A stretch of DNA of 64,000 bases from positions 45,626 to 109,625 of the forward strand of contig CBDDKY010000003.1 in NCBI GenBank assembly GCA_965230455.1, written 5' to 3'. Positions within the stretch are counted from its first letter, which is position 1; each line of letters opens with the position of its first letter. The notes beneath the pieces are model-generated. The model made no database searches, was not told where the DNA came from, and worked only from the letters and a program-made list of their open reading frames with translations. This DNA is from Gammaproteobacteria bacterium. GTDB lineage: Bacteria > Pseudomonadota > Gammaproteobacteria > CBDDKY01. Below are positions 20,744-52,642 of the stretch, in pieces. The translations under genes and the position numbers were made by a program.

Positions 20744-21047
20744 TTAACCCCTTGAAATTAGTGGCCTAGACAGGCATGCTTACTTTATTTTTCGCAACAA
20801 TGAGGATACGTTGCTCATGAAAATCAAGATGCGCAAAAGATTATCAGCCCCAGGCCTGCTTGAGGCTACCAAAACCCGATTTGCTCGTAGTGACAAAATC
20901 GCTTGGTAATTAGACCGACAGTTTGCCTTGGTAATGACAATAGTTCACGGGGTAAAAAAAGATTTAACCTAAAATAGAATATGTTAGGGAACAAAAAAAT
21001 CCTGCCGTGTCGCCGTATTGTGGATAATTTCTTCAGCATACATTGAT

Positions 21048-21327
21048 CCTAAAATCAGCAGTTAAATCACGTTTTTGGCGATAACATCTTGACTTATCTA
21101 AGAAAACAAAAAAAGTCTACATCACCAATAAGGGTGAACCAGAACGATGTGCCAGTGGCACATCGCAGTCTGGTGAGCGCGAGGACAGGATGTCCGAGCT
21201 GGGACTGATAAGAACAAGGGCCGTGCGACAGGATGTCTGTGGCAGTCATTGCTTATTTCCCTTTTTAGTTTCCTTGTCTAAATCAATCTGTTACACCAAA
21301 AAAGCGCGATTTACTGCTGATTTTAGG
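21048..21327 (-). repeat. MITE-like element family R2, copy 1, about 280 bp, with about 24-bp terminal inverted repeats 'cctaaaatcagcagtNaaatc'.
   Basis: Its reverse complement aligns nearly base-for-base with 38991-39320. It contains the perfect internal palindrome 'gatgtgccagtggcacatc'. Confidence 0.75.
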
Positions 21328-27232: not shown

Positions 27233-27261
27233 TGCCCTCATTTATCACCCTCGCCTAGGGC

Positions 27262-30200
27262 GTGTCATCAATTACCCAGCTCTGAGTAATAAACTAACGG
27301 GTACGCCCGAAAAAATACACTCTCTCTCAGTAGCTTGCAGCCCCTCTTACTCGTCTTTGCGAGCGGCAGCGAAGCAATCCAGGGTGGTAGGCTGACTTGT
27401 TCTATTTTTTCAGTGAACTAGAAACAGGTATGCCCTCTCTTGAACAAGGCAAGGCGTTATGTATTCAGAATGCACAGCTTCGTGGTTTAAACTTTCCTAG
27501 GATTTAATTTGGATTGCCGCGCTGCCGCTCGCAACGACGAATAAGGTGGTGCGTAACAAGTTGATGTAGAATGGTTTTTTTAGGGTGTGCTTGGGCGTTC
27601 ATCATTGCCGCTCGCAAGGACGAATAAGGTGGCGCGTAACAAGTTGGTGTAGAATGATTTTTTTAGGATGTACTTGAGCGTTCATCATTCCTTGTAAAAG
27701 CAAACCGTATTGAGTAATAAACTAACGAGCACACCATAAAAGAAGCATTTCCTTTCAATAGCTTACGGGCCCTCTTACTCGTCTTTGCGAGCGGCAGCGA
27801 AGCAATCCAGGGTGGTAGGCTGACTTGTTCTATTTTTTCAGTGAACTAGAAACAGGTATGCCCTCTCTTGAACAAGGCAAGGCGTTATGTATTCAGAATG
27901 CACAGCTTCGTGGTTTAAACTTTCCTAGGATTTAATTTGGATTGCCGCGCTGCCGCTCGCAACGACGAATAAGGTGGTGCGTAACAAATTGATGTAGAAT
28001 GGTTTTTTTAGGGTGTGCTTGGGCGTTCATCATTCCTTGTAAAAGCAAACCGTACTGAGTAATAAACTAACGGGTACACCATAAAAGAAGCATTTCCTTT
28101 CAATGGCTTACATGCTCTCTTACTCGTCTTTGCGAGCGGCAGCGAAGCAATCCAGGGTGGTAGGCTGACTTGTTTTATTTTTTCAGTGAACTAGAAACAG
28201 GTATGCCCTCTCTTGAACAAGGCAAGGCGTTATGTATTCAGAATGCACAGCTTCGTGGTTTAAACTTTCCTAGGATTTAATTTGGATTGCCGCGCTGCCG
28301 CTCGCAACGACGAATAAGGTGGTGCGTAACAAATTGATGTAGAATGGTTTTTTTAGGGTGTGCTTGAGCGTTCATCATTTCTTGTGAAAGCAAACCGTAC
28401 TGAGTCATAAACTAACGGGTACACCATAAAAGAAGCATTTCCTTTCAATGGCTTACATGCTCTCTTACTCGTCTTTGCGAGCGGCAGCGAAGCAATCCAG
28501 GGTGGTAGGCTGACTTGTTCTATTTTTTCAGTGAACTAGAAACAGGTATGCCCTCTCTTGAACAAGGCAAGGCGTTATGTATTCAGAATGCACAGCTTCG
28601 TGGTTTAAACTTTCCTAGGATTTAATTTGGATTGCCGCGCTGCCGCTCGCAACGACGACTAAGGTGGTGCGTAACAAGTTGGTGTAGAATGATTTTTTAG
28701 GGTGTGCTTGGGCGTTCATCGTTTCTTGTGAAAACAAACCGTACTGAGTAATAAACTAACGGGTACACCATAAAAGAAGTATTGCCTTTCAATGACTTAC
28801 GTGCTCTCTTACTCGTCCTTGCGAGCGGCAGCGCGGCAATCCAGGGTGGCAAGCTGACGTGTCCTTTTTTTTGATGCCTGACCCGTGGGTATGCCCTTCT
28901 TGAACAAGACAGGGCATTAGGCGCTCAGTGCGCACGGCTTTGTGGTTGACACTTTCCTACCGTTCAACTTGGGTCGCGTCGCTGCCGCTCGCAACGACGA
29001 ATAAGGTGGTGCGTAACAAATTGATGTAGAATGGTTTTTTTAGGGTGTGCTTGAGCGTTCATCATTCCTTGTGAAAGCAAATCGTACTGAGTAATAAACT
29101 AACGGGTACACCATAAAAGAAGCATTTCCTTTCAATGGCTTACATGCTCTCTTACTCGTCTTTGCGAGCGGCAGCGAAGCAATCCAGGGTGGTAGGCTGA
29201 CTTATTCTATTTTTTCAGTGAACTAGAAACAGGTATGCCCTCTCTTGAACAAGGCAAGGCGCTATGTGTGCAGAGTCCATAGCTTCGTGGTTTAAACTTT
29301 CCTAGGATTTAATTTGGATTGCTTCGCTGCCGCTCGCAACGACGAATAAGGTGGTGCGTAACAAGTTGGTGTAGAATGGTTTTTTTAGGGTGTGCTTGGG
29401 CGTTCATCATTCCTTGTAAAAGCAAACCGTACTGAGTAATAAACTAACGGGTACACCATAAAAGAAGCATTTCCTTTCAATGGCTTACATGCTCTCTTAC
29501 TCGTCTTTGCGAGCGGCAGCGAAGCAATCCAGGGCGGTAGGCTGACTTGTTCTATTTTTTCAGTGAACTAGAAACAGGTATGCCCTCTCTTGAACAAGGC
29601 AAGGCGTTATGTATTCAGAATGCACAGCTTCGTGGTTTAAACTTTCCTAGGATTTAATTTGGATTGCTTCGCTGCCGCTCGCAACGACGACTAAGGTGGT
29701 GCGTAACAAGTTGGTGTAGAATGATTTTTTAGGGTGTGCTTGGGCGTTCATCATTCCTTGTGAAAGCAAATCGTACTGAGTAATAAACTAACGGGTACAC
29801 CATAAAAGAAGCATTTCCTTTCAATGGCTTACATGCTCTCTTACTCGTCTTTGCGAGCGGCAGCGAAGCAATCCAGGGTGGTAGGCTGACTTGTTCTATT
29901 TTTTCAGTGAACTAGAAACAGGTATGCCCTCTCTTGAACAAGGCAAGGCGTTATGTATTCAGAATGCACAGCTTCGTGGTTTAAACTTTCCTAGGATTTA
30001 ATTTGGATTGCCGCGCTGCCGCTCGCAACGACGAATAAGGTGGTGCGTAACAAGTTGATGTAGAATGGTTTTTTTAGGGTGTGCTTGAGCGTTCATCATT
30101 TCTTGTGAAAGCAAACCGTACTGAGTCATAAACTAACGAGCACACCATAAAAGAAGCATTTCCTTTCAATAGCTTACGGGCCCTCTTACTCGTCTTTGCG

Positions 30201-30578
30201 AGCGGCAGCGAAGCAATCCAGGGTGGTAGGCTGACTTGTTCTATTTTTTCAGTGAACTAGAAACAGGTATGCCCTCTCTTGAACAAGGCAAGGCGTTATG
30301 TATTCAGAATGCACAGCTTCGTGGTTTAAACTTTCCTAGGATTTAATTTGGATTGCCGCGCTGCCGCTCGCAAGGACGAATAAGGTGGTGCGTAACAAGT
30401 TGATGTAGAATGGTTTTTTTAGGGTGTGCTTGAGCGTTCATCATTCTTTGTGAAAGCAAACAGTATTGAGTAATAAACTAACGGGTACGCCCGAAAAAAT
30501 ACACTCTCTCTCAGTAGCTTGCAGCCCCTCTTACTCGTCGTTGCGAGCGGCAGCGAAGCAATCCAGGGTGGTAGGCTC
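27262..30578 (-). repeat. Tandem array B of the same ~345-bp unit, about 10 units, in inverted orientation relative to arrays A and C.
   Basis: It is the reverse complement of the array-A unit, for example 'ggattgccgcgctgccgctcgcaacgacgaataaggtggtgcgtaacaagttg'. It starts about 30 bp after the priA stop and ends about 115 bp before the GNAT gene. Confidence 0.9.
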
Positions 30579-30692
30579 GAGATTTCTCACGTTAAAATCA
30601 CCCCCTTCTTTGAAAGTTTATGCTACAATTTCTTGAAATTTCAGAACTCATAAAGGACGTTGTCCATGCCTCTGACTAAAATATAGAAAATT

Positions 30693-31562
30693 ATGATAAT
30701 ACGCCTAGAAAAATTGTCTCGTCTTAGCATGAACCAATTCAATCAAATCAAAAAGTTGGCCGAGCTCTGTGAAAGAGTGGATGGGAGTCTAATCAAGCAT
30801 TACTGGAATATCCTGCAAGCACGCCGCACACGGGAGTTTGATGACTTTTGTTATTCGATAGATAATCGTTTAGTGGCACATTTAGCGACTTACGTCTTTA
30901 AGCCTCATGAGGCAGAAATCAGTGCAATGGTACACCCTCACCATCGACAGCAAGGGATTTTCTCACGCCTTTTTCAAGAGGCTCACTATGAATTAAAACA
31001 CCGTGGTATCCAACGCATGCTTTTGGTTTGTAAGCATGGCTTTACGCCCGCAGAAACTTGTCTAACCGGTTTGGGCGCTACTTATTCACATTCAGAATAT
31101 GAAATGGCTCTCGCGCCACGTGACTTTACACCCTCATCAAAAGAAACGAGTCTAACCATAAACCGCGCCGCCCCCAAAGATATTCCCTGTCTGGCGACAA
31201 TGGACAAAGATGCCTTTCAAACCTGCCCAAAAGAAGCTAGCGAAAACTTAAAGCACGCTTTGCAAGATCAGAAGAAAATTATTTACATCGCACTCAGCTC
31301 CACGGGCGATCCTGTTGGGAAAATACATTTCCGCCAGGAAACCGGTCACCAAGTGTTGCATGACTTTTGTGTGTTAAGCTCTCTGCGAGGTCAGGGGTAT
31401 GGCGAGCAAATACTGACAAAATCTTTGGAAAGTATTTTTAATACACCGTGCAAACGCGTTGTTCTCGATGTGGTTTTTGATAATGAGAGAGCGTTATCCC
31501 TTTACAAAAAACATGGCTTCTCTATCACAGCTGATTTTGATTTTTGGGGGCAAACAATATGA
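30693..31562 (+). CDS. GNAT-family N-acetyltransferase with two tandem acetyltransferase-like halves.
   Basis: An acetyl-CoA-binding type motif 'RQQGIFSRLFQ' in the first half and 'LRGQGYGEQIL' in the second half, with 'LYKKHGF' close to the C-terminus. Confidence 0.65.
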   Translation: MIIRLEKLSRLSMNQFNQIKKLAELCERVDGSLIKHYWNILQARRTREFDDFCYSIDNRLVAHLATYVFKPHEAEISAMVHPHHRQQGIFSRLFQEAHYELKHRGIQRMLLVCKHGFTPAETCLTGLGATYSHSEYEMALAPRDFTPSSKETSLTINRAAPKDIPCLATMDKDAFQTCPKEASENLKHALQDQKKIIYIALSSTGDPVGKIHFRQETGHQVLHDFCVLSSLRGQGYGEQILTKSLESIFNTPCKRVVLDVVFDNERALSLYKKHGFSITADFDFWGQTI

Positions 31563-38928: not shown

Positions 38929-38990
38929 CTTGTTGATCTGTCAACACTTTTCCAGATAGTTTTATTATTAAATTCTATTTGCTCTTTCAA

Positions 38991-39320
38991 CCTAAAATCG
39001 GCAGTCAATCGCGTCTTTTTGGTGTAACAGATTGATTTAGCCTAACATCAGCAGTCAATCGCGCTTTTTTGGTGTAACAGATTGATTTAGACAAGGAAAC
39101 TAAAAAGGGAAATAAGCAATGACTGCCACAGACATCCTGTCGCAAGGCTCTTGTTCTTATCAGTCCCAGCTCGGACATCCTGTCCTCGCGCTCACCAGAC
39201 TGCGATGTGCCACTGGCACATCGTTCTGGTTCACCCTTATTGGTGATGGAGACTTTTTTTGCTTTCTTAGATGAATCCAGATGTTATCGCCAAAAACGTG
39301 ATTTAACTGCTGATTTTAGG
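38991..39320 (+). repeat. MITE-like element family R2, copy 2, with a 50-bp tandem duplication of its left end.
   Basis: The reverse complement of 21048-21327. 'cctaaaatcggcagtcaatcgcg..gatttag' occurs twice in succession. Confidence 0.75.
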
Positions 39321-39481: not shown

Positions 39482-40453
39482 TTGATAAAAAAATCAACAG
39501 GTTGCTCTATGTATATGCTAGATATAAAATATTTTATCTTTGCCTTTATGTTAGTTGGGTATGCCAGTTCGAAATGTCATATTTTTCATATAAACACATC
39601 TGAATTACTAGTAAGGTTGTTATTTTATATATTAATGCCAATTATTTTATTCTTTGAAGTTGCAAGATTACCAATTGCAGAAACGCTATCATGGGGTTAC
39701 ATTAGCACCTACACTTGTGTCTACATCATAACATTTACACTTAGCGCAATAATTTCACAATTTTTTTTTAAGAGAAACACTACCAATACTCTTCTTAATG
39801 CTATGGCGTCTACACATCCTAATGCTGTTTACATTGCATTGCCTTTATTTCTCTTACTTTTTAAAACAAGTGCATTAATTGCCACTACCATTAGCCTACA
39901 AACCTGCTTTAACTTTTTTATGCTAGCTAAACTTGATTTATTAACCACGAAACATTCTATTAATAGCACCAATTTCTACATAATAGCACGAACCATTATA
40001 AGAACACCTATTTTAACTGGAATATTATTAGGTCTGGTTTTTAGTTTTTTTCATATTACATTTCCAGAATCTATTTATTCAACTTTTAACGCTATTACTT
40101 ATTTCACTTCATCTCTTGCACTATTTGCCTTAGGCTTATCTCTTGGCGCTTCCTCAGTAAAATTTGATAAACAACAAAGATTAGAAATATTAACTCTAGT
40201 TTTTTTAAAGTCACTATTACACCCACTGTTTGCTTTTTTAATAGGTCATTACGTATTTTCTTTAAATAGTAAAACATTAATAGCGGTTATTTTAATGGCA
40301 GCTATGCCAACAGCAAAAAGTTTATTCATCGTTGCAAAACGGTATGAAGCAAATACCAGTCGCATAAACACCGTTATATTCATAACAACCATTTTCTCAG
40401 CTGTTACAATTAATGTTATTTTCTTAATAGAAAGCTATTTATCAATCAAATAA
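39482..40453 (+). CDS. Auxin-efflux-carrier (AEC, Mem_trans-like) family membrane transporter with about 10 TM segments. The gene is very AT-rich.
   Basis: It is hydrophobic throughout. Two halves have similar topology ('ALPLFLLLF', 'FALGLSLGAS'). GC is around 30%, much lower than core genes. The true start may be Met12. Confidence 0.6.
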   Translation: MIKKSTGCSMYMLDIKYFIFAFMLVGYASSKCHIFHINTSELLVRLLFYILMPIILFFEVARLPIAETLSWGYISTYTCVYIITFTLSAIISQFFFKRNTTNTLLNAMASTHPNAVYIALPLFLLLFKTSALIATTISLQTCFNFFMLAKLDLLTTKHSINSTNFYIIARTIIRTPILTGILLGLVFSFFHITFPESIYSTFNAITYFTSSLALFALGLSLGASSVKFDKQQRLEILTLVFLKSLLHPLFAFLIGHYVFSLNSKTLIAVILMAAMPTAKSLFIVAKRYEANTSRINTVIFITTIFSAVTINVIFLIESYLSIK

Positions 40454-40454
40454 C

Positions 40455-40712
40455 TATACCCGTAGCGGTTGAATTTTAGGTGTTGCATGAAGCTTTCCAT
40501 GGAGCACGCTATTGTTTTAAGCGCCAGATGTCAATTAGATTTGAATGATGTTGCCCTAAAAAAGAGAATGGTAGCTATTGTAAGTCTTAGTTTTGTTATA
40601 GTAGGTCCCAAGAGAGTTCTACCCGACGATTTTTTTTAGGGCAATATCATTCAAAGGTGGTTGGCAGGTGGCAGGTGGCAGCTCAAAAACCTAAAATTCA
40701 ACCGCTACGGGT
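40455..40712. repeat. MITE-like element of about 255 bp with 23-bp inverted termini and nested palindromes. It abuts the ISAs1 left end.
   Basis: 'acccgtagcggttgaattttagg' at 40457-40479 and 'cctaaaattcaaccgctacgggt' at 40691-40713. Inner inverted repeat 'tgatgttgccctaaaaaa'/'ttttttagggcaatatca'. Triple 'ggcaggt' run. Confidence 0.6.
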
Positions 40713-40719
40713 ATATAGT

Positions 40720-41974
40720 CCAGGGCTGTCCCATTAAAATTATGCTAAGAGGGGTTGGTAAAAGTTCACTAAAGGATTACACTTCTTGCTTTACAAAACA
40801 AGGAGTTAGTGATGGCCAGCTCAAAGCAACCCGCCTTTCTTTATCATTTTGATAAGCTAGAAGACCCAAGAATTGAACGAAAGAAACTTTATCCGCTGAA
40901 TGAAATTTTACTCACTGTTTTATGCGCAAGCATTTGTGGCGCACAAAGCTGGCGAGATTTTGTAACGTTTGGCGAGGAAAAACTGGATTATCTTCGGCGC
41001 TTTCTGCCCTTTGAGCAAGGCATTCCATCAAAGAACACCTTCGCTAGGGTCATGTCAGCTTTAGAGCCAGAAGCTTTTAGAGCGTGCTTCATTGCCTGGG
41101 TTCAGTCTTTTCAATCAGCGTTAAAGGAAATCATTGCTATTGATGGCAAGTGTCTAAGAAAAAGTTTTGACGCTGCAGCAGGACAATCAGCTATCCATAT
41201 GGTGAGTGCTTTTGCCACGTCGAGCAAGTTAGTATTAGGGCAAGAAAAAGTCAATGAAAAGTCTAATGAAATCACAGCTATCCCAAAACTATTAGATTTA
41301 CTGGCTCTCGAAGGCTGCATTGTAAGTATCGACGCAATGGGTACACAGAAGAAAATTGCGAAAAAGATCCGCCAAAAAAAAGCGGATTATGTTTTATCCT
41401 TGAAAGGGAACCACAGTACGTTACATGATGATATTACTCTATTTTTATCGAGTGAAGTTGAAAAATTGTGTCAAGGCAAACCGCACAATATTACAGACCA
41501 ACACGAAGAGTGTGATAAAGGTCATGGACGTATTGAACGGCGTTTATGTTATGTAAGTGAGCGACTAGATTGGCTGACACAGAAGAAGGATTGGTGTGAT
41601 ATAAAAACCGTTGCCATGGTGGAGTCACAGGTCAACCAGGGGGCAAAAACGACAACAGAGCGACGTTATTTTATTAGCAGTATGGCTGCGAATGCAAAAG
41701 AATTAGCACAAGCCATACGTAGTCATTGGGCTATAGAGAATAGTTTGCATTGGGTTTTAGATGTCACGATAGGAGAAGATTTATCACGAGTGCGAAAAGA
41801 TAATGCGCCTGAAAACATGGCGATGGTTCGCCATGTTGTTTTAAATTTACTCCGAGGTGCCAAACCCCAGTTCCGAAAGGATATGAGCCTCAAGGGCCTG
41901 CAAAAGAAAGCTGGATGGGGTGAAAAAACACTCAATACCATTCTTATGCAGGAATTTTAATGGGACAGCCCTGG
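40720..41974 (+). mobile_element. ISAs1-family IS element (H-repeat-associated type transposase), apparently intact.
   Basis: 15-bp terminal inverted repeats 'ccagggctgtcccat' at 40720-40734 and 'atgggacagccctgg' at 41960-41974 bound the 383-aa DDE transposase ORF. Confidence 0.8.
40809..41960 (+). CDS. ISAs1-family transposase.
   Basis: 383 aa. The N-terminus 'PRIERKKLYPLNEILLTVLCASICGAQSWRDFVTFGEEKLDYL' matches the DDE_Tnp_1-associated domain. It has the DDE core and the C-terminal 'HWAIENSLHWVLDVTIGED'. Confidence 0.88.
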   Translation: MMASSKQPAFLYHFDKLEDPRIERKKLYPLNEILLTVLCASICGAQSWRDFVTFGEEKLDYLRRFLPFEQGIPSKNTFARVMSALEPEAFRACFIAWVQSFQSALKEIIAIDGKCLRKSFDAAAGQSAIHMVSAFATSSKLVLGQEKVNEKSNEITAIPKLLDLLALEGCIVSIDAMGTQKKIAKKIRQKKADYVLSLKGNHSTLHDDITLFLSSEVEKLCQGKPHNITDQHEECDKGHGRIERRLCYVSERLDWLTQKKDWCDIKTVAMVESQVNQGAKTTTERRYFISSMAANAKELAQAIRSHWAIENSLHWVLDVTIGEDLSRVRKDNAPENMAMVRHVVLNLLRGAKPQFRKDMSLKGLQKKAGWGEKTLNTILMQEF

Positions 41975-42007
41975 TATATAGTCTGAGGGACCGACACAAA
42001 TTCATTT

Positions 42008-42727
42008 TTAAAAACAAAGGGTTGAGAAATAATTATAGGTTTCTTGCTTTAAGAAGCTAAGCGCTTCCCTATATTGTTCATTGGTTATTTGATAACGCTT
42101 ATAAATTAATTCACAACCTAAAAAGAAACGCGATAGCACTCGCCTATGTTTCGTTGAGTTTGCTTGAAAGTGCCATTGTAAATTATTCATCTCACCAACC
42201 GTGCCTATCAAATAAGCAAATAAGGACGCTAAGGCTGCAATGATGAGTATCACCCGATATCGGCTTTTGCTCTTTGAAAAAGTCTCTCGAAGCCCAAGAC
42301 CATAGCGTCCACTTTTCATGTCACGGAACCCCTATTCTATACTCATCCGTAACTGATAAGCACCAACAATGTACTTTGCAGGAGCTTCTAAGGATGATAT
42401 TAATAACCAAGGTTCTATCACTGACGCTTTGTGGCGATTACTTTTTTGCGTGCGGCTAGGGCGACCTGTTCGCGTATGTGCATGACGTCCTTGGCCTGGC
42501 TTTTTATACAAGTAAAAGAAACCTGGAAATTCTTTTTGTCGACAATAATAGCCTTCCCCTAGATACTTAGGCTTCTTCGTCGCCTTACCCCACACATCAT
42601 GCCAATCGTCCGGTTGCAAATCCTCATCTGTAGAGATATTACTGTGCCCCCTCAGACGACCAATAAAGTCCCACCCTAATTTACGCACTAACGTGAACCA
42701 AGACAAACGAAACTCCACGTCTGTCAC
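42008..42727 (-). pseudogene. IS4-family DDE transposase remnant. It is frameshifted and N-terminally truncated.
   Basis: Two adjacent minus-strand ORFs, '...SLEAPAKYIVGAYQLRMSIE' and 'MKSGRYGLGLRETFSK...', rejoin by a frameshift into the IS4-type C-terminal signature 'YxxRWxIE..F(R)DMKSxxGL'. Perfect 26-bp inverted repeats 'tatatagtctgagggaccgacacaaa' sit at 41975-42000 and 43231-43256. Confidence 0.65.
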
Positions 42728-42825
42728 TAAAATGGGGCGACACGTTTCTGGAAGAACATGCTTTAGTTTATTTAAAAAGTAACGATATAAACGAACACTA
42801 AACTGTTCGCTTCGCTCATATATAT

Positions 42826-43256
42826 AGTCCCCGCAGTTGAAAGTTCGGGAAATTATTTGTTAATGTGATAACATAAGTTTTATATTTTAGCGCCTGGATG
42901 TTAGTCAGATTTGGACAATTTTTACTGAAAAAACGAGGATTTTAGCTATTCTAAATGACAAGTTTTTTCAGTAAAAATTGTTCAAAGATGGCTGGCAGAC
43001 AGACAGCTAAAACCCGAGGTTTCAACTGCGGGGACTATATACCCTGAGGGACCGACACAAAAAATTATTATAAAACAATCAGTTAAAGATCTATCAAATC
43101 AGGTGACTTAACAAGCTGAATTTAATAGTTAATCATATGTTACATAATCAGCTTTTTTATCCTTATTTTTAAGTAGCAAACGATAAGGGTTAAATCATAT
43201 AATCGTTACTCTTTGTTTTTTAAGGTTATTTTGTGTCGGTCCCTCAGACTATATAG
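42826..43256. repeat. Cluster of hairpin and MITE remnants inside the IS graveyard.
   Basis: 22-bp inverted pair 'tccccgcagttgaaagttcggg' (about 42826) and 'cccgaggtttcaactgcgggga' (about 43010). A perfect 19-bp hairpin 'caatttttactgaaaaaac ... gttttttcagtaaaaattg'. A third copy of 'ctgagggaccgacacaaaa' at about 43045 pairs with 43228-43250 to delimit a MITE of about 210 bp. Confidence 0.55.
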
Positions 43257-44373
43257 CAATTTCACTTCAAGATGCGAACACAGGTTTTTCTAAGATTTGA
43301 AAATTATCTGTTATTCTTGAACGCAATAATCTTTTCTTTTTGCCAATATGCCTAAAAAAATGTTTGATAGCCTCGGTAAAATCAGAAAATTTTTCATAAT
43401 ATTTATTGTAGGTAACTTGCTCATGCATAATCTTCCACAGTCGTTCTACTGGATTTAGATTGGGTGAATATGGCGGTAAATAATGTATGACTATCCCCAG
43501 CTCTTTAGCAAAATCCTGTACTAATCCACTACAATGGTAACCTACATTATCCCAAATAATGTGCACTTTATAATTTCCAGGGTGATGTTTACGCAGCCGA
43601 AATAAAAAGGATTGTATGCTTTCTTCATTGATCTTGTCGGATTGCTCATAAACAACTTTGTGATTAGTTAAGCAGACTCCGCCCATAAAGTTTAAGCGGT
43701 ATTGTCGAGCTGTTGTAGCAATCGGTTTACGCTCGCCTTTCATTATCCAACCATAAGCTAGCCTTGTTTGATGTTGTGGATGAACACTATCAACAAAGTA
43801 AATAGGCTCTTTTCTACCCGCTTTTTTCTTTAGTTTCTCATAATAGGTAATAAAATCTATTTGCTTAGTTTTATCTGCTTTAGCAGGAACTGCATTTGGT
43901 TTTTTATAACGAAAACCGTGCTGGTGTAACCACTTCGTCATGCCACTGATGGTGTATTTTTTATTAAAAGTTTTGCGTACATAAGCACAAATATCTTTTA
44001 CATAGCGGTAAGTGTATTTTTTTAAATGTGATAAAAGTAACTGCGACTGCTCTTGGTTAAGTTGACTATTGCTGCCGCCATTTTCTGGCTTTAATTTAAA
44101 TGTTTTAAAATAATCAGAAATATGCCGACGAATGGTTTCATCATCTAATAATAAAAGACGAGCAACTTCAGAGTAACTGTAGCCGTCATCGTAAGCTAAT
44201 ACAGCCTTGATTCGGTCGCAAGTCCGCTTGTCGCGCTCTTTTTTATGGCGCCGTTGCAGCTTTTCACGTTCTTGTGTTGTTAGCTTTCTATTCATAACGG
44301 TATTTGATCATATCCTGATGATTTATGCAACTTTTTTAAGTCAAATTCGCATCTTCAATGGCGAGTGCTATAT
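43252..44373 (-). mobile_element. IS630-family IS element, copy 1 (about 1.12 kb). The target is a TA within 'tatata'.
   Basis: The ends 'tagcaatttcacttcaagatgcg' and '...cgcatcttcaatggcgagtgcta' form imperfect terminal inverted repeats flanked by TA. Copy 2 at 61978-63099 is more than 99% identical. Confidence 0.85.
43267..44295 (-). CDS. IS630-family (Tc1/mariner-like) transposase.
   Basis: 342 aa with an N-terminal HTH, DDE/D core 'IYFVDSVHPQ' and 'IHYLPPYSPNLNPVERLW'. Confidence 0.9.
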   Translation of the reverse strand: MNRKLTTQEREKLQRRHKKERDKRTCDRIKAVLAYDDGYSYSEVARLLLLDDETIRRHISDYFKTFKLKPENGGSNSQLNQEQSQLLLSHLKKYTYRYVKDICAYVRKTFNKKYTISGMTKWLHQHGFRYKKPNAVPAKADKTKQIDFITYYEKLKKKAGRKEPIYFVDSVHPQHQTRLAYGWIMKGERKPIATTARQYRLNFMGGVCLTNHKVVYEQSDKINEESIQSFLFRLRKHHPGNYKVHIIWDNVGYHCSGLVQDFAKELGIVIHYLPPYSPNLNPVERLWKIMHEQVTYNKYYEKFSDFTEAIKHFFRHIGKKKRLLRSRITDNFQILEKPVFAS

Positions 44374-46348
44374 ATTCAATGCCTATATCTCGTGTTCTTT
44401 TAATAAAATCTTCATGGCCATCTTCATGATTAAAATAGTAAGGCGTTAGAGGAATGTCCTTCTTCTTCATTTCTGCTAAAATTAAATTACTGAGTTTTCT
44501 ACCTAGACCTAATTTTTCAGCACAGAGATAAATATGGTTTAAATAGTAAAAGGTGATGCTTATTGACTCATAGCTTACTGAAACTTTTTCGCTTCCACCT
44601 TGTACCATTTCACCCAGCAATTCTCGGCTAATAAATTCTGCACCATGAGCGCCAGTCTTGGTTAGCGTTTTATGAGACAGGGCAGCAAGCTCTGGTATAA
44701 GTCTATCCTGCATTTCTTTGAAAAATACTTCCAGGCCTTCCTTCTCTCTTCTAAATTTTTTCTTAGTATTGTTAGTTTTAGGATAAAAATCCACAAGCAT
44801 AGATAAAAGTAGCATCAGCCGCATGCGAATTAAAAACCATCCAAACTGAAAATGAAGGCTATCTTTTTCCTCAAAAATTTCCATACGCTTTTCATCACAG
44901 CGTTTAATTAATGAAAAAAGCTTATCGAAAATATTTGCGATATTACTGCCATGCTTTGATAAAATAATAACAGAGTTTTTATAAAGACTTAGCAAGTTTA
45001 CAGCCGTATTTCGCAAAAAAGCATTTCCCATATTATCTGCAGTTTCTCGTATATTTTTTTCTATATCAAGCAAGGTTGCCTCAATATATAAATTAAAAAG
45101 TTCTTCGTATAAAAAACTAGGCAGTAAACTATTAGTAATATGTGGTGCTAGAAAAATCCTCACGGCTTTCAAGGCTTTTTCAAAAGCATTTATTGCTTCT
45201 TTATTTGATTTTTTTAAGCCTTTCATGCCGTTTTTTAACTTTAGCAACAACTGGCTATATGCTTTTTCATTGAATTTCTTTACATATCCCTCAGAAAGGG
45301 CAGATAGCTCATGATTTCTGCGTCCTATTCGTCTCTGGTAACCTTGAAATTTTTCACCCAAAAAAGCTTTTGTAAAAATTTTCTGCATGTCAGGGTCGCT
45401 ACCAGAAAACAATTGCTCTTCATCAGACTGTGTTAAGGGAACATGCTTCTCTAGGCGGGCAATATAATTACCCATAGGCTCTTCTAATTCCACAGGGGTT
45501 TTATCTGCTAAGCAAGCAATGCCTTTATAGCTTGCAAATAATACATTATGTTCAATAAGCACAGGCAAACTAGCATCCAGCCATTCGCCTTCCCGTTTAA
45601 TAGCCTGCTGAAGTTCTATTTGGATTTTTGTTGCCTCATCGCCTGCAAAGTTTAATTGACTCAATTGTCTTTCTTTTGCTTTAATCTCTGCCCGGAGCGC
45701 TGTCAACTGTTCGGCAACATATCCCTCAACCTCCTCGGCAAACTCAAGGTTGAATTTAAGGAACTCAAAACAAGCCGTCAAGTCTCTATTAAAGGATACA
45801 AAAAGCAGCTTACTTAGCATGACCTCACATAGGCGTAAGCATCTCACTAAAGGCCCAAGTTCAAGCGCCGCTTTTTCTTTGCTACTTTCATAGGCTTTAC
45901 CCGCCTCAAAAAATATTTTTTTCCAGAGTGCATTAAATAGATTCACCAAAAAGCTAACATTTAGCTTTTTATCCAAATACATCCCAAAAGAAACTAAAAC
46001 GCTGTTCAGTGCAGATTCTGCCCAACTATCCTCATACGATGAGTTTAGCGGATTGTACTTAGCCTTGATAACAGCCATATAAGCCTGAATATCCTTAAAG
46101 ACATCATAAAAAGGTTTGAATATTGAGGAATGTTCATGTTCAATGCAGTAGTTATCAAACGCCTCATAGAATGTATCGCTCTTACTCAGGCAAATATCGA
46201 AGGTCTTATCATCGATGGTATAGCTATGCATTAGGTCTTGCAGTAGCTGCTCTTCCTCAGATAACGTGGTACTTTCCGACTCATTCACCACCGTATCTGT
46301 TGCTGCTTGTTGAATATTCATGCCCCATAACCTCCTGATTAAAAACAC
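44336..46348 (-). CDS. 670-aa alpha-helical protein of unknown function. Its 3' end is interrupted by IS630, and the last 12 codons plus the stop come from the IS terminus.
   Basis: The ORF crosses the IS630 right boundary at about 44373. The tail 'YIALAIEDANLT*' is encoded by the IS terminal repeat. There are no transmembrane segments and no known motif. Confidence 0.6.
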   Translation of the reverse strand: MFLIRRLWGMNIQQAATDTVVNESESTTLSEEEQLLQDLMHSYTIDDKTFDICLSKSDTFYEAFDNYCIEHEHSSIFKPFYDVFKDIQAYMAVIKAKYNPLNSSYEDSWAESALNSVLVSFGMYLDKKLNVSFLVNLFNALWKKIFFEAGKAYESSKEKAALELGPLVRCLRLCEVMLSKLLFVSFNRDLTACFEFLKFNLEFAEEVEGYVAEQLTALRAEIKAKERQLSQLNFAGDEATKIQIELQQAIKREGEWLDASLPVLIEHNVLFASYKGIACLADKTPVELEEPMGNYIARLEKHVPLTQSDEEQLFSGSDPDMQKIFTKAFLGEKFQGYQRRIGRRNHELSALSEGYVKKFNEKAYSQLLLKLKNGMKGLKKSNKEAINAFEKALKAVRIFLAPHITNSLLPSFLYEELFNLYIEATLLDIEKNIRETADNMGNAFLRNTAVNLLSLYKNSVIILSKHGSNIANIFDKLFSLIKRCDEKRMEIFEEKDSLHFQFGWFLIRMRLMLLLSMLVDFYPKTNNTKKKFRREKEGLEVFFKEMQDRLIPELAALSHKTLTKTGAHGAEFISRELLGEMVQGGSEKVSVSYESISITFYYLNHIYLCAEKLGLGRKLSNLILAEMKKKDIPLTPYYFNHEDGHEDFIKRTRDIGIEYIALAIEDANLT

Positions 46349-51276: not shown

Positions 51277-52458
51277 TTAGGATGCCTTAGGCTGCACCGA
51301 ATAGGTCTTTAAACGTCGAGCAAAAGCCGCTAATACTTCAACGCCCGTTGCTTCAGCCTGACGACACCATTCTTGTAGCGCGTCAATCAACTCTTTTTGT
51401 GTTGCCGTGGTACGCGCCCAAATAGCTTGTAATTTTTGGCGATACTGATAGGCTAGCGCTAATTGCTCACGCCCTGATAACGCTGCGTTAATGGTTTCTC
51501 TGGCCTTGGCATCCACCAATTCATCGGCAGCAATCAGCGCACGCTTGGAACGACAAAATAATTTAGAAGCATGACCTTTTAATTTCGCTTTTTCTACATC
51601 GAAAATAGGCAGCATAACTTCTTTACTGTAGCGCGATAAAATTTGGAAACGGTGACGCACTAAAGCTGTCAGCGTATCCACGTCAATTTGCGTTTTGTCT
51701 TTGATGACGACTGGGTGAGTTGCCACACGACGAACCTTGACTAAATTCAGTAGTGAAAAGATTTTAATATACAACCAACCAATATCAAATTCCCACCACT
51801 TCACTGAAAACTTTGCAGACGTACCGAAGGTATGGTGATTGTTATGCAACTCTTCGCCGCCGACGATAATACCGATAGGCCAGAGGTTCGTCGCTGCATC
51901 GGTGCACTCATAATTACGATACCCCCAAAAATGCGCTAAACCATTAACAAGGCCCGCAGCAAATAAGGGAATCCAAGCCATTTGAATAGCCCAAACTATA
52001 ATACCCGGGAAGCCTAATAGCGCCACATCAAGCACAGCCATCAACAAAAGACCTAACGCAGGATAACGCGTGTATACGTTGCGCTCCATCCAATCGTCAG
52101 GCGTACCTTTACCAAATTTTTCCAGGGTGGCTTTATCTTTACAGGCTTTGCGATACAATTCCGCCCCCTGCCACATCACCGTGCGCAAACCCAATAGCTG
52201 TGGGCTATGGGGGTCTTGTTCTGTTTCACAGTGGGCGTGATGTTTACGGTGAATGGCAACCCATTGCTTGGTTTCCATACCCGTGGTTAACCACAACCAA
52301 AACCGAAAGATATGCGATAAAAAGGGATGCATGTCGATGCCACGATGGGCTTGGCAGCGATGCAAATAAAGCGTAACCGCCATGACCGTCAACTGCGTCA
52401 TCGCCAAGGTCAATATGACATAGCCCCAAAAAGAAAGATTTAGCAATCCGTAAAACAT
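51277..52458 (-). CDS. Membrane fatty-acid (acyl-CoA/acyl-lipid delta-9 type) desaturase.
   Basis: Histidine boxes 'HRKHH', 'HRLHH-like' and 'HNNHH', with 4 TM helices. The start is placed at Met23 (RBS GAGGA). The first 22 codons of the ORF-track model begin at GTG and are read through the R4 repeat. Confidence 0.85.
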   Translation of the reverse strand: MFYGLLNLSFWGYVILTLAMTQLTVMAVTLYLHRCQAHRGIDMHPFLSHIFRFWLWLTTGMETKQWVAIHRKHHAHCETEQDPHSPQLLGLRTVMWQGAELYRKACKDKATLEKFGKGTPDDWMERNVYTRYPALGLLLMAVLDVALLGFPGIIVWAIQMAWIPLFAAGLVNGLAHFWGYRNYECTDAATNLWPIGIIVGGEELHNNHHTFGTSAKFSVKWWEFDIGWLYIKIFSLLNLVKVRRVATHPVVIKDKTQIDVDTLTALVRHRFQILSRYSKEVMLPIFDVEKAKLKGHASKLFCRSKRALIAADELVDAKARETINAALSGREQLALAYQYRQKLQAIWARTTATQKELIDALQEWCRQAEATGVEVLAAFARRLKTYSVQPKAS

Positions 52459-52503
52459 GAGGTTTTCCTCGTCTAAAGTAAAATAAGCCCTAAACACCAG
52501 GGG

Positions 52504-52642
52504 CTGTTGACAATTCATTTTCACGCTGCAATTTGAATAAAACGGGTGCGAATTTGCGTGTATTTTCGTTACTATAGTTCACTATGCCGCCTCAAATAAA
52601 CACAAATTTGTCCCTCGCAGTAATTCCCGCTGGGAATTGCTG
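52504..52642 (+). repeat. Repeat family R4 copy (about 115 bp) fused to a REP-like palindrome 'cagtaattcccgctgggaattgctg' at 52618-52642.
   Basis: Identical stretches occur at 19142-19188 and, in reverse complement, at 39325-39452. The palindrome family also occurs at 12543, 35464 and 35853. Confidence 0.7.

What the first reader, a model, noticed from the sequence alone, without database searches (positions are those of the whole stretch)
40455..44373. Nested IS graveyard: MITE, intact ISAs1, IS4-family remnant with perfect 26-bp terminal inverted repeats, derivative MITEs, and IS630, all joined at TATATA sites
From 40.4 to 44.4 kb the order is: a 255-bp MITE (40455-40712), an intact ISAs1 (40720-41974), an IS4-family remnant delimited by perfect 26-bp inverted repeats 'tatatagtctgagggaccgacacaaa' (41975-42000 and 43231-43256) that contains a frameshifted transposase (42008-42727), an internal hairpin element (42826-43030) and a third terminal-repeat copy at about 43045 that defines a ~210-bp MITE, and then IS630 (43252-44373). 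Every junction falls at a 'tatata' motif. A single TA-rich hotspot has therefore been hit repeatedly. The perfect 26-bp repeats suggest the IS4-like family may still be mobilisable in trans.
Basis: seen in the sequence. Interest (0 to 1): 0.5.

Follow-up and report, generated by a model that had tools for sequence, protein, structure and literature searches.

The report
Nested transposon pile-up at TATATA site
A 3.9-kb gap between two convergent genes holds six mobile-element pieces (two live insertion sequences, one dead one, three miniature derivatives) that all landed in one TATATA site; this is an ordinary, well-resolved case of transposon nesting.

Summary
Seven of the window's 13 TATATA hexamers lie in this 3.9 kb, all at element junctions.

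Corrections:
- The "IS4 remnant bounded by perfect repeats" is a chimera. It joins a 5'-truncated IS10-subgroup copy (A, minus strand) to a 204-bp internally deleted derivative (B, plus strand). Both outer ends are stop-side ends, which explains the perfect symmetry.
- The transposase carries an in-frame TAG, not a frameshift, and lacks the first catalytic Asp.
- The "hairpin element" is a homologue of the 253-bp MITE. Both have IS630-type ends.

The ISAs1 element is intact, with a perfect 8- or 10-bp target duplication that overlaps A's terminus, so it inserted late. The IS630 element is intact and has a 99.8% identical second copy in the window.

Diverged relatives of the IS4-like element in unrelated metagenomes carry the same TATATA plus CC/GT at both ends. 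One lies directly beside an IS630-family element. The nesting therefore reflects shared TA-repeat targeting, not only a local hotspot.

A second genomic copy of the IS4-like element stops at the same residue, so dead copies multiplied, most simply in trans. These are new members of known IS families, and interest is low.

The parts
39482..40453 (+). Left flanking gene (membrane transport protein, Pfam Mem_trans). Its stop codon TAA is at 40451-40453, 1 bp before the TATA that starts the nest.
40455..40458 (.). TATA flank left of MITE1. This is the only junction without a full TATATA.
40459..40711 (.). MITE1: 253 bp, no ORF. It has perfect 22-nt TIRs and a near full-length foldback (DNA fold -63 kcal/mol, z = -11). 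Its end has the IS630-type layout TATA|CCCGT....TTGAA.
40712..40719 (.). TATATAGT: left copy of the ISAs1 target duplication. It is 8 bp as written, or 10 bp (GTATATAGTC, 40711-40720) if the IS is taken to start at CAGGG.
40720..41974 (+). Intact ISAs1-family insertion sequence: 1255 bp, perfect 22-nt TIRs, transposase ORF 40812-41960 (382 aa).
41975..41982 (.). TATATAGT: right copy of the ISAs1 target duplication. It is also the TATATA flank plus the GT dinucleotide of IS4-like copy A.
41983..42825 (-). IS4-like copy A (IS4 family, IS10 subgroup), 5'-truncated. The stop-side end CTGAGGGACCGACACAAA is at 41983-42000. The transposase pseudogene spans 42008-42825 (about aa 115-390 of 390 in P0001 numbering). 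It has an in-frame TAG at 42331-42333 inside the Y(2)R(3)E(6)K motif, and the first catalytic Asp is missing.
42819..42826 (.). TA run at the A|MITE2 junction. It is partly native coding sequence: the second genomic copy reads ...EHIYERSEQ..., so the native sequence appears to stop inside the run, at about 42825.
42827..43035 (.). MITE2: 209 bp, a homologue of MITE1 in the same polarity (alignment z = 7.0; 0 of 500 shuffles reach it). TIR GTCCCCGCAGTTGAAA; foldback -64 kcal/mol, z = -13.
43036..43043 (.). TATATACC: TATATA flank shared by MITE2 and B, plus the CC dinucleotide next to B's start-side end.
43044..43247 (+). IS4-like element B: a 204-bp internally deleted derivative (a MITE-sized element). 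Its left end resembles the start-side (5'-UTR) end of intact relatives. Its right end resembles the stop-side end and keeps traces of the last codons. It lies in the opposite orientation to A.
43250..44374 (-). Intact IS630-family insertion sequence, including its TA-repeat flanks. The transposase ORF is 43267-44295 (342 aa). The TIRs are about 32 nt at 78% complementarity. The exact boundary within TATATA cannot be resolved.
44336..46348 (-). Right flanking gene (670-aa ORF; annotated elsewhere as 661 aa; no Pfam match). Its last 11 codons (ALAIEDANLT plus the stop) are read from the IS630 end. Without the nest it would end 3-7 codons after ...GIEY.
61976..63099 (-). Second IS630 copy, 99.8% identical over 1124 bp (2 interior differences). 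It sits at the edge of a 345-bp tandem array.

Best explanation
The region is a transposon nest built by at least five or six separate insertions into one TATATA site. That site lay where the 3' ends of two convergent genes meet, a place where insertions do little harm.

Current order, left to right: gene | TATA | MITE1 | TATATAGT | ISAs1 | TATATAGT | IS4-like A (3' two-thirds, dead) | TA run | MITE2 | TATATA | IS4-like B (204-bp deletion derivative, opposite orientation) | TATATA | IS630 | TATATA | gene.

Mechanism:
- IS630-family elements and the two MITEs, which have IS630-type ends, integrate at TA and duplicate it.
- The IS4-like clade (IS10 subgroup) is found next to a palindromic TATATA core wherever it occurs.
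- Each insertion therefore leaves fresh TA-repeat sites at both of its ends, and the site grows by accretion.
- ISAs1 came late. It duplicated 8-10 bp that span the TATATA and the first 2-3 nt of A's terminus.

The 'perfect 26-bp inverted repeats' exist because both outer ends of the A+B block are stop-side ends of the same IS family facing each other.

Shown: element identities, boundaries, orientation, the truncation and the nonsense codon, homology of the two MITEs, the ISAs1 duplication, TATATA flanks in relatives.

Inferred: the order of the earlier events; how A lost its 5' third (either a deletion between TATATA repeats in place, or arrival as a ready-made block); past mobilisation in trans; which bases of TATATA are duplicated target and which are carried by the element.
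For: Family assignments:
- ISAs1 model NF033564: 425 bits against a cutoff of 70, full model length.
- IS630 model NF033545: 218 bits against 100.
- IS4 model NF033591: 192 bits against 152 for the remnant and 270 bits for its intact relatives.
- Pfam agrees.

IS10 subgroup:
- P0001 is 33% identical over 89% of its length to IS10A, ISVsa5 and ISEc29 transposases.
- Intact relatives measure 1306-1308 bp from CTGAG to CTCAG.
- The termini start CTGA, like the IS10 outside end CTGATGAATCCCC printed in PMC3159471 and PMC2705183.
- The YREK motif is present and the D-62-D-127-E spacing lies within the ranges given in PMC2266710.

Chimera:
- tblastn finds only aa 115-390 of the transposase in the window.
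- B's left end aligns with the start-side ends of relatives. A's left end and B's right end align with each other and with stop-side ends.

MITEs:
- MITE1 and MITE2 are homologous.
- They share the in-register layout TATA + 9-10 nt + TTGAA with the window IS630, the IS630-family element in L144 and an annotated Vibrio campbellii IS630-family element.

ISAs1: the flanking direct repeat is perfect.

TATATA:
- Strongly enriched in the nest and always at junctions.
- TATATA plus an S-Y dinucleotide flanks CTGAG in L009-L012, L141-L144 and L179.
- Outgroup relatives at 37-39% identity (L026, L039) have ordinary 9-bp direct repeats directly against CTGAG.
- In L144 an IS4-like relative abuts an IS630-family element.

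Activity:
- The two IS630 copies in the window are 99.8% identical.
- The identical ISAs1 transposase is recorded on 3 contigs and one of the two IS630 variants also on 3.
- A second IS4-like copy, P0159, ends at the same residue.
Against: - The source genome's DNA could not be retrieved beyond the window. Copy numbers of MITE1, MITE2 and B, and the existence of an intact IS4-like master copy, are unknown.
- The 18-mer terminus was not found in the species-representative genome collection except as chance hits.
- The MITE terminus pattern found nothing in metagenomes.
- TATATA is self-complementary, so a duplication of 2, 4 or 6 bp cannot be told apart from element-borne TA repeats. A 10-bp palindromic target (GGTATATACC, perfect in L141) is not excluded either.
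- More distant relatives have imperfect cores (GGCTTATACC in L181; TATAGC, TATATT and TATAAA in the L133-L136 family).
- Five other TATATA sites in the window are unoccupied, so the motif alone does not make a site a hotspot.
- The order of the early events is only partly constrained.
Confidence: 0.85

Rival explanations
1. Positions 41975-43256 are one IS4-family copy bounded by its own left and right ends. It decayed in place by frameshift and internal loss, and a separate ~210-bp MITE and a hairpin element later inserted inside it.
For: The two 26-mers are perfect inverted repeats and flank a transposase pseudogene. The total length without MITE2, about 1040 bp, is not far from the ~1310 bp of intact relatives.
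Against: - The sequence just inside both outer ends is of the stop-side type: 51 nt at 86% complementarity, including traces of the last codons.
- An intact element has different start-side and stop-side inner sequences (L009-L011, L141, L144).
- The only start-side-type end is the third copy at 43044, and it faces the wrong way to belong to A.
- No trace of the first 114 codons exists in the window.
- The defect is a nonsense codon, not a frameshift.
Confidence: 0.07
2. The A-B block was not formed here. Elsewhere in the genome, B inserted into the TA run of a full-length A copy. A transposase acting in trans then paired A's stop-side end with B's stop-side end and moved the segment between them, about 1.04 kb, to this site as a new pseudo-IS with perfect ends. 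No deletion is then needed.
For: - The two outer ends are a perfect, correctly inverted pair, each with TATATA outside it.
- All three 18-nt termini are identical although the adjacent inner sequence has diverged (about 70-86% identity), which suggests the termini were kept usable.
- Dead copies did multiply: P0159 ends at the same residue as A.
Against: - No second copy of the block is available for comparison.
- The alternative is equally simple: a deletion in place between the TATATA to the right of B and the TATATA that flanked A's lost start-side end.
- No intact transposase of this family is seen in the window.
Confidence: 0.35
3. There is no special local hotspot. The TATATA motifs are carried in by the elements as part of their terminal repeats. 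The nest is a survivorship effect: in a gene-dense genome, insertions persist only in a harmless spot between convergent genes.
For: - TATATA plus S-Y is symmetric on both sides of diverged IS4-like relatives, with no direct repeat outside it.
- Both IS630 copies share TATATA on the left and TATAT on the right.
- IS630-type ends in the Vibrio and L144 elements start TATA|CC.
- PMC11544213 notes IS630 members with TATA at both ends.
- Five free TATATA sites in the window are unoccupied.
Against: - Flanks vary among copies and relatives (TATAGC, TATATT, TATAAA, CTTATA).
- Assembly unitigs of multi-copy relatives break at or 1 nt outside CTGAG (L180, L181), as expected if the sequence outside is target DNA.
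- Part of the TA run at 42819-42825 is native coding sequence of A, so at least that site was a pre-existing target.
- TA duplication is the established behaviour of the IS630/Tc1/mariner group (PMC5481204).
Confidence: 0.25
4. Assembly artefact: repeats collapsed or were mis-joined at low-complexity TA runs, producing an apparent nest.
For: All junctions are short TA repeats, where assemblers can mis-join. IS630 and ISAs1 are multi-copy in this genome.
Against: - The junction logic is internally consistent. The ISAs1 duplication is perfect and includes nucleotides of A's terminus, and each element has both of its own ends in the right orientation.
- The public annotation of the same genome contains the chimeric C-terminus of the 661-aa protein and both pseudogene ORFs exactly as in the window, on a 1.52-Mb contig.
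Confidence: 0.03

Closest known systems
IS10 / Tn10 and its relatives IS10A, ISVsa5 and ISEc29 (IS4 family, IS10 subgroup)
   Same: - Single-ORF DDE transposase of about 390-400 aa with the Y(2)R(3)E(6)K motif.
- 33% identity over 89% of the length.
- Element length about 1.3 kb.
- Termini begin 5'-CTGA.
- Outgroup relatives with the same terminal motif make 9-bp duplications, like IS10.
   Different: - The clade to which A and B belong is flanked on both sides by TATATA plus an S-Y dinucleotide, arranged as an inverted rather than a direct repeat. No 9-bp direct repeat abuts CTGAG.
- IS10's known hotspot (NGCTNAGCN, from memory) is unrelated.
- The copies here are dead: A is truncated and has a nonsense codon, and B is an internal-deletion derivative.
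IS630 family (IS630/Tc1/mariner group) and their MITEs, for example Correia elements of Neisseria and Nezha of cyanobacteria (both recalled from memory)
   Same: - The 342-aa transposase has DDE_3 and HTH_33 domains.
- Insertion is at TA.
- MITE1 and MITE2 are short, have no ORF, are flanked by TA and have ends in register with three IS630-family elements.
   Different: - Transposase identity to annotated plasmid-borne members is under 50%.
- The MITE termini are only about 50% identical to the resident IS630 ends, so their driver may be another, unseen, IS630-family element.
- The MITEs are near full-length foldbacks.
- Their copy number is unknown.
ISAs1 family (ISAs1, IS1358, H-repeat elements)
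   Same: - PF13808 and PF01609 domains and a full-length NF033564 match.
- About 1.25 kb, with terminal repeats starting (C)CAGGG.
- An 8- or 10-bp duplication. The family ranges are recalled from ISfinder, not tested against it.
   Different: About 47% identity to annotated plasmid-borne members. There is nothing unusual otherwise.
Nested IS clusters in IS-rich bacterial genomes
   Same: Several unrelated elements are stacked into one another at a harmless intergenic position, with older members degraded and younger ones intact.
   Different: All junctions here fall in one self-complementary hexamer, so the insertion history can be read nearly base by base. The same IS4-like/IS630 adjacency recurs in an unrelated metagenome contig (L144).

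Membership tests
IS4 family | DDE transposase with D(60-110)D(100-150)E spacing and the Y(2)R(3)E(6)K motif (PMC2266710) | tested here: met
   The remnant reads YQLRMSIE*GFRDMK, with the stop at the first position of the 6-residue spacer. Intact relative P0001 has D94, D157 and E285, giving spacers of 62 and 127. NF033591 scores 191.6 bits against a cutoff of 152. A itself lacks the first Asp because of the truncation.
IS4 family, IS10 subgroup | Length 1200-1350 bp and ends starting 5'-CT (Table 1 of PMC2266710) | tested here: met
   Intact relatives measure 1306-1308 bp from CTGAG to CTCAG. The closest annotated transposases are IS10A, ISVsa5 and ISEc29.
IS4 family, IS10 subgroup | 9-bp direct target duplication next to the termini | tested here: not met
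   In L009-L011 and in window element B, the 9 bp next to CTGAG on the two sides are inverted, not direct, repeats. Only the TATATA core is shared. L141 fits a 10-bp palindrome. Outgroup relatives L026 and L039 do have 9-bp direct repeats. The window elements themselves are embedded in a nest, so their own duplications cannot be read cleanly.
ISAs1 family | ISAs1-type transposase (DDE_Tnp_1_assoc plus DDE_Tnp_1) | tested here: met
   PF13808 at 3e-32 and PF01609 at 4e-25. NF033564 at 425 bits, covering model positions 1-314 of 314.
ISAs1 family | About 1.2-1.5 kb, short terminal inverted repeats, 8-10-bp duplication (ranges recalled from ISfinder) | tested here: met
   The element is 1255 bp with perfect 22-nt repeats. 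The direct repeat is TATATAGT (8 bp) or GTATATAGTC (10 bp), and it is perfect.
IS630 family | DDE_3 transposase with N-terminal helix-turn-helix domains | tested here: met
   PF13358 at 5e-34 and PF13592 at 2e-15. NF033545 at 218.5 bits against a cutoff of 100.
IS630 family | Insertion at TA with TA duplication | tested here: inconclusive
   Both copies are flanked by TA repeats, which is compatible with a TA duplication. No empty site is available: copy 2 sits at the edge of a tandem array and the sequence to its right does not continue the repeat.
MITE (non-autonomous derivative of a DNA transposon) | Short, no ORF, terminal inverted repeats related to those of an autonomous element, flanking target duplication | tested here: met
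   MITE1 is 253 bp, MITE2 209 bp and B 204 bp. MITE1 and MITE2 have IS630-type ends. B has both ends of the IS4-like element. All are flanked by TA repeats.
MITE (non-autonomous derivative of a DNA transposon) | Multiple dispersed copies in the genome | not testable with these tools
   The window holds one copy of each, although MITE1 and MITE2 are diverged relatives of each other. The rest of the genome's DNA could not be fetched. The metagenome scan for the MITE terminus found nothing.

The most novel reading that the evidence does not exclude
A clade of IS10-like (IS4-family) elements has given up the canonical 9-bp duplication and hotspot. It now integrates into a palindromic TA-repeat core (TATATA, in the context GG..CC) with a short symmetric duplication. 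That is the same kind of site that IS630-type elements use and regenerate. The two unrelated transposon families would then seed each other's targets and co-nest repeatedly, as seen here and in L144. The S-Y dinucleotide next to the IS10-type terminus has the same repertoire as the first two bases of IS630-type ends, which leaves room for a closer relationship, such as insertion into IS630-type footprints or shells.
Probability: 0.3. Interest if true: 0.4.

Novelty: new member of a known kind. Interest (0 to 1): 0.2.

Why it matters
The practical value is annotation. The locus supplies exact ends for three unnamed insertion sequences and three miniature elements in a poorly sampled gammaproteobacterium. 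The closest GlnA is 74% identical and the assembly has contigs of 1.52 and 0.85 Mb. It also shows which elements are alive (ISAs1, IS630) and which are dead (IS4-like).

Two general points follow:
- A perfect inverted repeat around a pseudogene need not mark one element. Two copies facing each other with the same end give the same picture.
- TA-targeting elements regenerate their own target, so nests can grow without any special property of the host site.

The one thread worth a specialist's attention is the TATATA-flanked IS10-like clade. Its ends do not fit the 9-bp rule of its subgroup.

Tried and rejected
- Genome scan. A scan of species-representative genomes with the 18-nt terminus gave 8 single chance hits in high-GC genomes.
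- Exact-protein look-ups for contigs (IS630, ISAs1, GlnA, P0031) were all 'not on record'. The same proteins are nevertheless in the protein collection, so no extra DNA from the genome could be obtained.
- Metagenome scan for the MITE1/MITE2 terminus consensus: 0 hits.
- Metagenome scan and viral scan for CTGAGNNAYCGACACAWA returned mostly chance matches in coding DNA. A few genuine ends were recovered from the metagenome scan (L026, L028, L039, L129). Nothing useful came from the viral contigs.
- Plasmid collection, DNA mode: only weak ISAs1 hits, and nothing for the MITEs, the IS4-like element or IS630.
- Rfam: no family at gathering score in the window. Only sub-threshold miRNA-precursor hits on the MITE2 hairpin appeared, and these were rejected as hairpin mimicry. 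No tRNA genes were found.
- I tried to fix the duplication length of the IS4-like clade (2, 4, 6, 8, 9 or 10 bp) from flanks, from the tandem junction in L144 and from the native TA run in A. It cannot be decided, because the core is self-complementary.
- The family of P0023 (L133-L140) has a different architecture, with long terminal regions, and was set aside.
- Inverted-repeat search on the Vibrio IS630 element missed its ends. They were read directly from the sequence instead.

Full report
**What is in the sequence**

- MITE1 has perfect 22-nt terminal inverted repeats (TIRs) at 40459-40480 and 40690-40711.
- The ISAs1-type element has perfect 22-nt TIRs at 40720-40741 and 41953-41974.
- The 18-nt core CTGAGGGACCGACACAAA occurs three times: at 41983 (+), 43044 (+) and 43230-43247 (-). 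Shuffles give 0.01 expected.
- With the adjoining TATATAGT, the outer two copies form a perfect 26-bp inverted repeat.
- The hairpin element has arms at 42827-42849 and 43013-43035.
- The IS630-type element has about 32-nt arms and a second copy at 61976-63099. The two copies are 99.8% identical over 1124 bp.
- TATATA occurs 13 times in the 64-kb window. Seven are inside the 3.95-kb nest, and all seven sit at element junctions. Five of the six outside are ordinary unoccupied sites, and the sixth is the left end of the second IS630 copy.
- The leftmost junction has only TATA.

**Identity of the three insertion sequences**

- The 382-aa ORF at 40812-41960 matches Pfam DDE_Tnp_1_assoc and DDE_Tnp_1. 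It matches the NCBIfam ISAs1 model over its whole length, 425 bits against a cutoff of 70.
- The 342-aa ORF at 43267-44295 (minus strand) matches DDE_3 and HTH_33 and the IS630 model, 218 bits against a cutoff of 100.
- The two short ORFs in 42008-42727 have no Pfam hit on their own. Translating the minus strand shows a single frame from 42825 to 42008, interrupted by one TAG at 42331-42333.
- The joined 269-aa sequence matches the NCBIfam model transpos_IS4_2, 192 bits against a cutoff of 152.
- It finds thirty homologues, most of them 385-408 aa. All are metagenomic or come from uncultured bacteria, all carry PF01609, and the best is 62% identical.
- The motif around the stop reads Y-QL-R-MSI-E-*GFRDM-K. 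This is the Y(2)R(3)E(6)K signature that defines the IS4 family (PMC2266710).
- In the intact relative P0001 the catalytic residues are D94, D157 and E285, with spacers of 62 and 127. These lie inside the family ranges.
- The window copy begins at about residue 115. It therefore lacks the first Asp as well as carrying a nonsense codon. 'Frameshifted' is incorrect.
- P0001 is 33% identical over 89% of its length to IS10A, ISVsa5 and ISEc29 transposases on plasmids.
- Intact relatives measure 1306-1308 bp between CTGAG and CTCAG. Their ends start CTGA, like the IS10 outside end CTGATGAATCCCC (PMC3159471 and PMC2705183). This places the element in the IS10 subgroup of the IS4 family.

**The 'remnant with perfect repeats' is two elements**

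- In intact relatives (L009, L010, L011, L141, L144) the sequence just inside the start-side end differs from that inside the stop-side end. The start-side reads CGACACAAAAA..A.AAAATCAA..., leading into a 107-116-nt leader. The stop-side overlaps the stop codon.
- In the window, the end at 41983 is of the stop-side type. This is expected, because the pseudogene's stop lies 7 nt away.
- The end at 43247 is also stop-side. Its inner 33 nt pair with those at 41983-42022 (51 nt at 86% complementarity) and keep traces of the last codons.
- The third copy, at 43044, is of the start-side type: CGACACAAAAAATTATTATAAAACAATCAG against CGACACAAAAATATTAATAAAATCAACAAA in L011.

So 43044-43247 is a complete but internally deleted 204-bp derivative (B) on the plus strand. 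41983-42825 is the 3' two-thirds of a separate copy (A) on the minus strand. The perfect symmetry of the outer 26-mers arises because they are the same kind of end from one family, facing each other. The three 18-nt termini are identical, whereas the adjacent inner sequence has diverged. This fits termini that were kept usable by transposition.

**Evidence from elsewhere in the same genome**

- The source genome's DNA could not be fetched.
- Its proteins are in the protein collection. The 661-aa neighbour and GlnA match at 100% on a 1,522,619-bp contig.
- Exact look-ups show the following. One of the two IS630 transposase variants is recorded on three contigs and the other on one. The ISAs1 transposase is recorded on three contigs, with additional truncated and read-through variants. 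The assembly includes a second large contig of 854,328 bp.
- The 131-aa pseudogene ORF clusters with a 217-aa protein, P0159, from another locus.
- P0159 extends upstream through ...PFIVIDGSKL...GRAITLYEHIYERSEQ... and ends at the same ...YQLRMSIE.
- This gives the native sequence across A's breakpoint. The native sequence appears to end inside the TA run, at about 42825, where the native codons are H-I-Y-E.
- Both copies end at the same residue, consistent with a shared nonsense codon. They differ at one residue in the overlap. The mutation therefore most likely predates the duplication, which means a dead copy multiplied. The simplest explanation is mobilisation in trans.
- GlnA's next-best hits are about 74% identical, and the named ones among the listed hits are marine and Legionellales-type gammaproteobacteria. 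The host lineage is poorly sampled.

**The two hairpin MITEs**

- MITE1 (253 bp) and MITE2 (209 bp) align over their whole length in the same polarity. The alignment score has z = 7.0 and no shuffle out of 500 reaches it. In the opposite polarity z is 1.3.
- Both fold into near full-length hairpins, at -63 and -64 kcal/mol with z = -11 and -13.
- Of 55 predicted pairs, 17 differ on both sides between the two elements yet stay paired. With two sequences this shows only that each element keeps its two halves symmetric, as long-TIR elements do.
- Their ends share an in-register layout with IS630-family elements: TATA, then 9-10 nt, then TTGAA.
  - MITE1: TATA|CCCGTAGCGGTTGAAT
  - MITE2: TATA|GTCCCCGCAGTTGAAA
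  - Window IS630: TATA|GCACTCGCCATTGAAG
  - IS630-family element in L144: TATA|CCTAGCGCGGTTGAC
  - Annotated Vibrio campbellii plasmid IS630-family element: TATA|CCCGTGATCATTGAAG
  

- I therefore assign MITE1 and MITE2 to IS630-derived MITEs. Their ends are only about half identical to those of the resident IS630, so the driver may be a different family member.

**The TATATA motif**

- TA integration with TA duplication is the established behaviour of the IS630/Tc1/mariner group (PMC5481204). Some IS630 members are reported with TATA at both ends (PMC11544213).
- The new point concerns the IS4-like clade. Intact relatives from unrelated metagenomes carry TATATA plus an S-Y dinucleotide directly outside CTGAG at both ends. 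These are L009, L010, L011/L012, L141-L143, L144 and L179, at 54-62% protein identity to A. The dinucleotide is mostly CC, but also GT, GC or CT.
- More distant members of the same terminal-motif group (L026, L039; 37-39% identical to P0001) have ordinary 9-bp direct repeats abutting CTGAG.
- In the TATATA clade, the 9 bp abutting CTGAG on the two sides are inverted, not direct, repeats, and no direct repeat lies outside the TATATA.
- L141 fits a 10-bp palindrome, GGTATATACC, on both sides.
- Several left flanks have GG before the TATATA.
- More distant members show imperfect cores: GGCTTATACC in L181, and TATAGC, TATATT and TATAAA in the L133-L136 family.
- Unitigs of multi-copy relatives break at or 1 nt outside CTGAG.

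Together these favour a palindromic target preference centred on TATATA. Because the core is self-complementary, I could not decide between a duplication of 2, 4, 6 or 10 bp. I also could not decide whether the S-Y pair is carried by the element.

The same adjacency seen in the window recurs in L144. There, an IS4-like relative is followed directly by an IS630-family element 37% identical to the window's, and two IS4-like ends are separated by exactly GGTATATACC. In L009 the relative sits in the centre of a palindrome with 68-nt arms, at TATATA.

**History of the locus**

Removing the elements reconstructs ...ATCAAATAAC-TATA(TA)-TTCAATGCC.... This lies at the convergent 3' ends of a membrane-transporter gene and a 670-aa ORF with no family match. 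The transporter's stop codon is at 40451-40453. The 670-aa ORF now takes its last 11 codons from the IS630 end. Without the nest it would end 3-7 codons after ...GIEY, so the damage is minimal.

The ISAs1 element is flanked by a perfect TATATAGT. If the element is taken to start at CAGGG, the repeat is GTATATAGTC instead. Either version includes the first 2-3 nt of A's end, so ISAs1 arrived after A. Under the 10-bp reading it also arrived after MITE1.

IS630 and ISAs1 are young. IS630 has a near-identical second copy, and ISAs1 has perfect repeats and a perfect duplication.

B abuts the native TA run inside A's reading frame, and MITE2 sits in that same run. A's 5' third (about 460 bp, including its start-side end) is gone. 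Two explanations fit:
- A deletion between the TATATA on B's right and the TATATA that flanked A's lost end.
- Formation of the A(3')-B block elsewhere, followed by transposition as a unit using its two stop-side ends.

I cannot separate these without the rest of the genome.

**Verdict**

The finding is real and its main interpretation is right, but the object is ordinary: a nest of new, unnamed members of three well-known IS families and their miniature derivatives, at a harmless site. The corrections concern the anatomy of the IS4-like part and the source of the TATATA motif. The only unusual aspect is the TATATA-flanked IS10-like clade, which departs from its subgroup's 9-bp duplication rule. 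This rests on about ten metagenomic contigs and remains unresolved.

Noticed in passing
window 1-1727, 27178-30714, 59463-61975: Three arrays of a ~345-bp tandem repeat, about 5, 10 and 7 units long, lie within 64 kb. They share an 87-nt conserved block ending ...CTTGCGAGCGGC and are not covered by any ORF of 180 aa or more. The second IS630 copy sits exactly at the right edge of the third array, and the sequence beyond it does not continue the repeat.
   Followed up: partly
window 19142-19188 and 52499-52545: A 47-nt sequence (AGGG.CTGTTGACAATTCATTTTCACGCTGCAATTTGAATAAAACGG) is repeated at 98% identity. One copy lies just upstream of a 4-hydroxyphenylpyruvate dioxygenase-like gene and the other at the 5' end of a DesA-family desaturase-like ORF, both on the minus strand. 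It may be a shared promoter or operator.
   Followed up: no
window 21043-21092, 38986-39035, 39036-39085: A 50-nt repeat (TT.A.CCTAAAATC.GCAGT.AAT...) occurs as two tandem copies about 400 bp upstream of the left flanking gene, with a third, 66% identical copy at 21 kb.
   Followed up: no
window 51277-52524 (-): The DesA-family desaturase ORF also matches the NCBIfam 'DesA/ISL3 alpha bundle tail' domain and, weakly, the ISL3 transposase model over residues 314-408.
   Followed up: no
window 44336-46348 (-): The 670-aa ORF next to the nest has no Pfam family. Its only homologue among 5.8 billion proteins is itself (661 aa, same genome). It is an orphan gene whose C-terminal 10 residues are encoded by the IS630 end.
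   Followed up: partly
L144 1-2510: In this metagenome contig, the stop-side end of one IS4-like copy and the start-side end of the next are separated by exactly GGTATATACC. An IS630-family element follows, and the contig ends in GGGTATATACC. This suggests a tandem or circularly permuted arrangement of IS4-like plus IS630-like units.
   Followed up: partly
L009 2386-3847: An IS4-like relative sits at the TATATA centre of a palindrome with 68-nt arms. The same contig carries a group II intron-type reverse transcriptase gene (RVT_1 and GIIM domains) about 640 bp from the palindrome.
   Followed up: no
L129 315-1661: An outgroup IS10-like element (39% identical to P0001) has at least 14-nt inverted flanks, aaggtgccctgggg|IS|ccccagggcacctt, and no direct repeat. 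Its nearest relatives L026 and L039 have clean 9-bp duplications.
   Followed up: no
P0157 (same genome, 854,328-bp contig): An ISAs1 transposase variant of 391 aa reads through the normal stop into the terminal repeat (...ILMQEFSWDSPVYLS). Truncated 143-aa and 218-aa variants also exist, so this family has both live and decaying copies in the genome.
   Followed up: no
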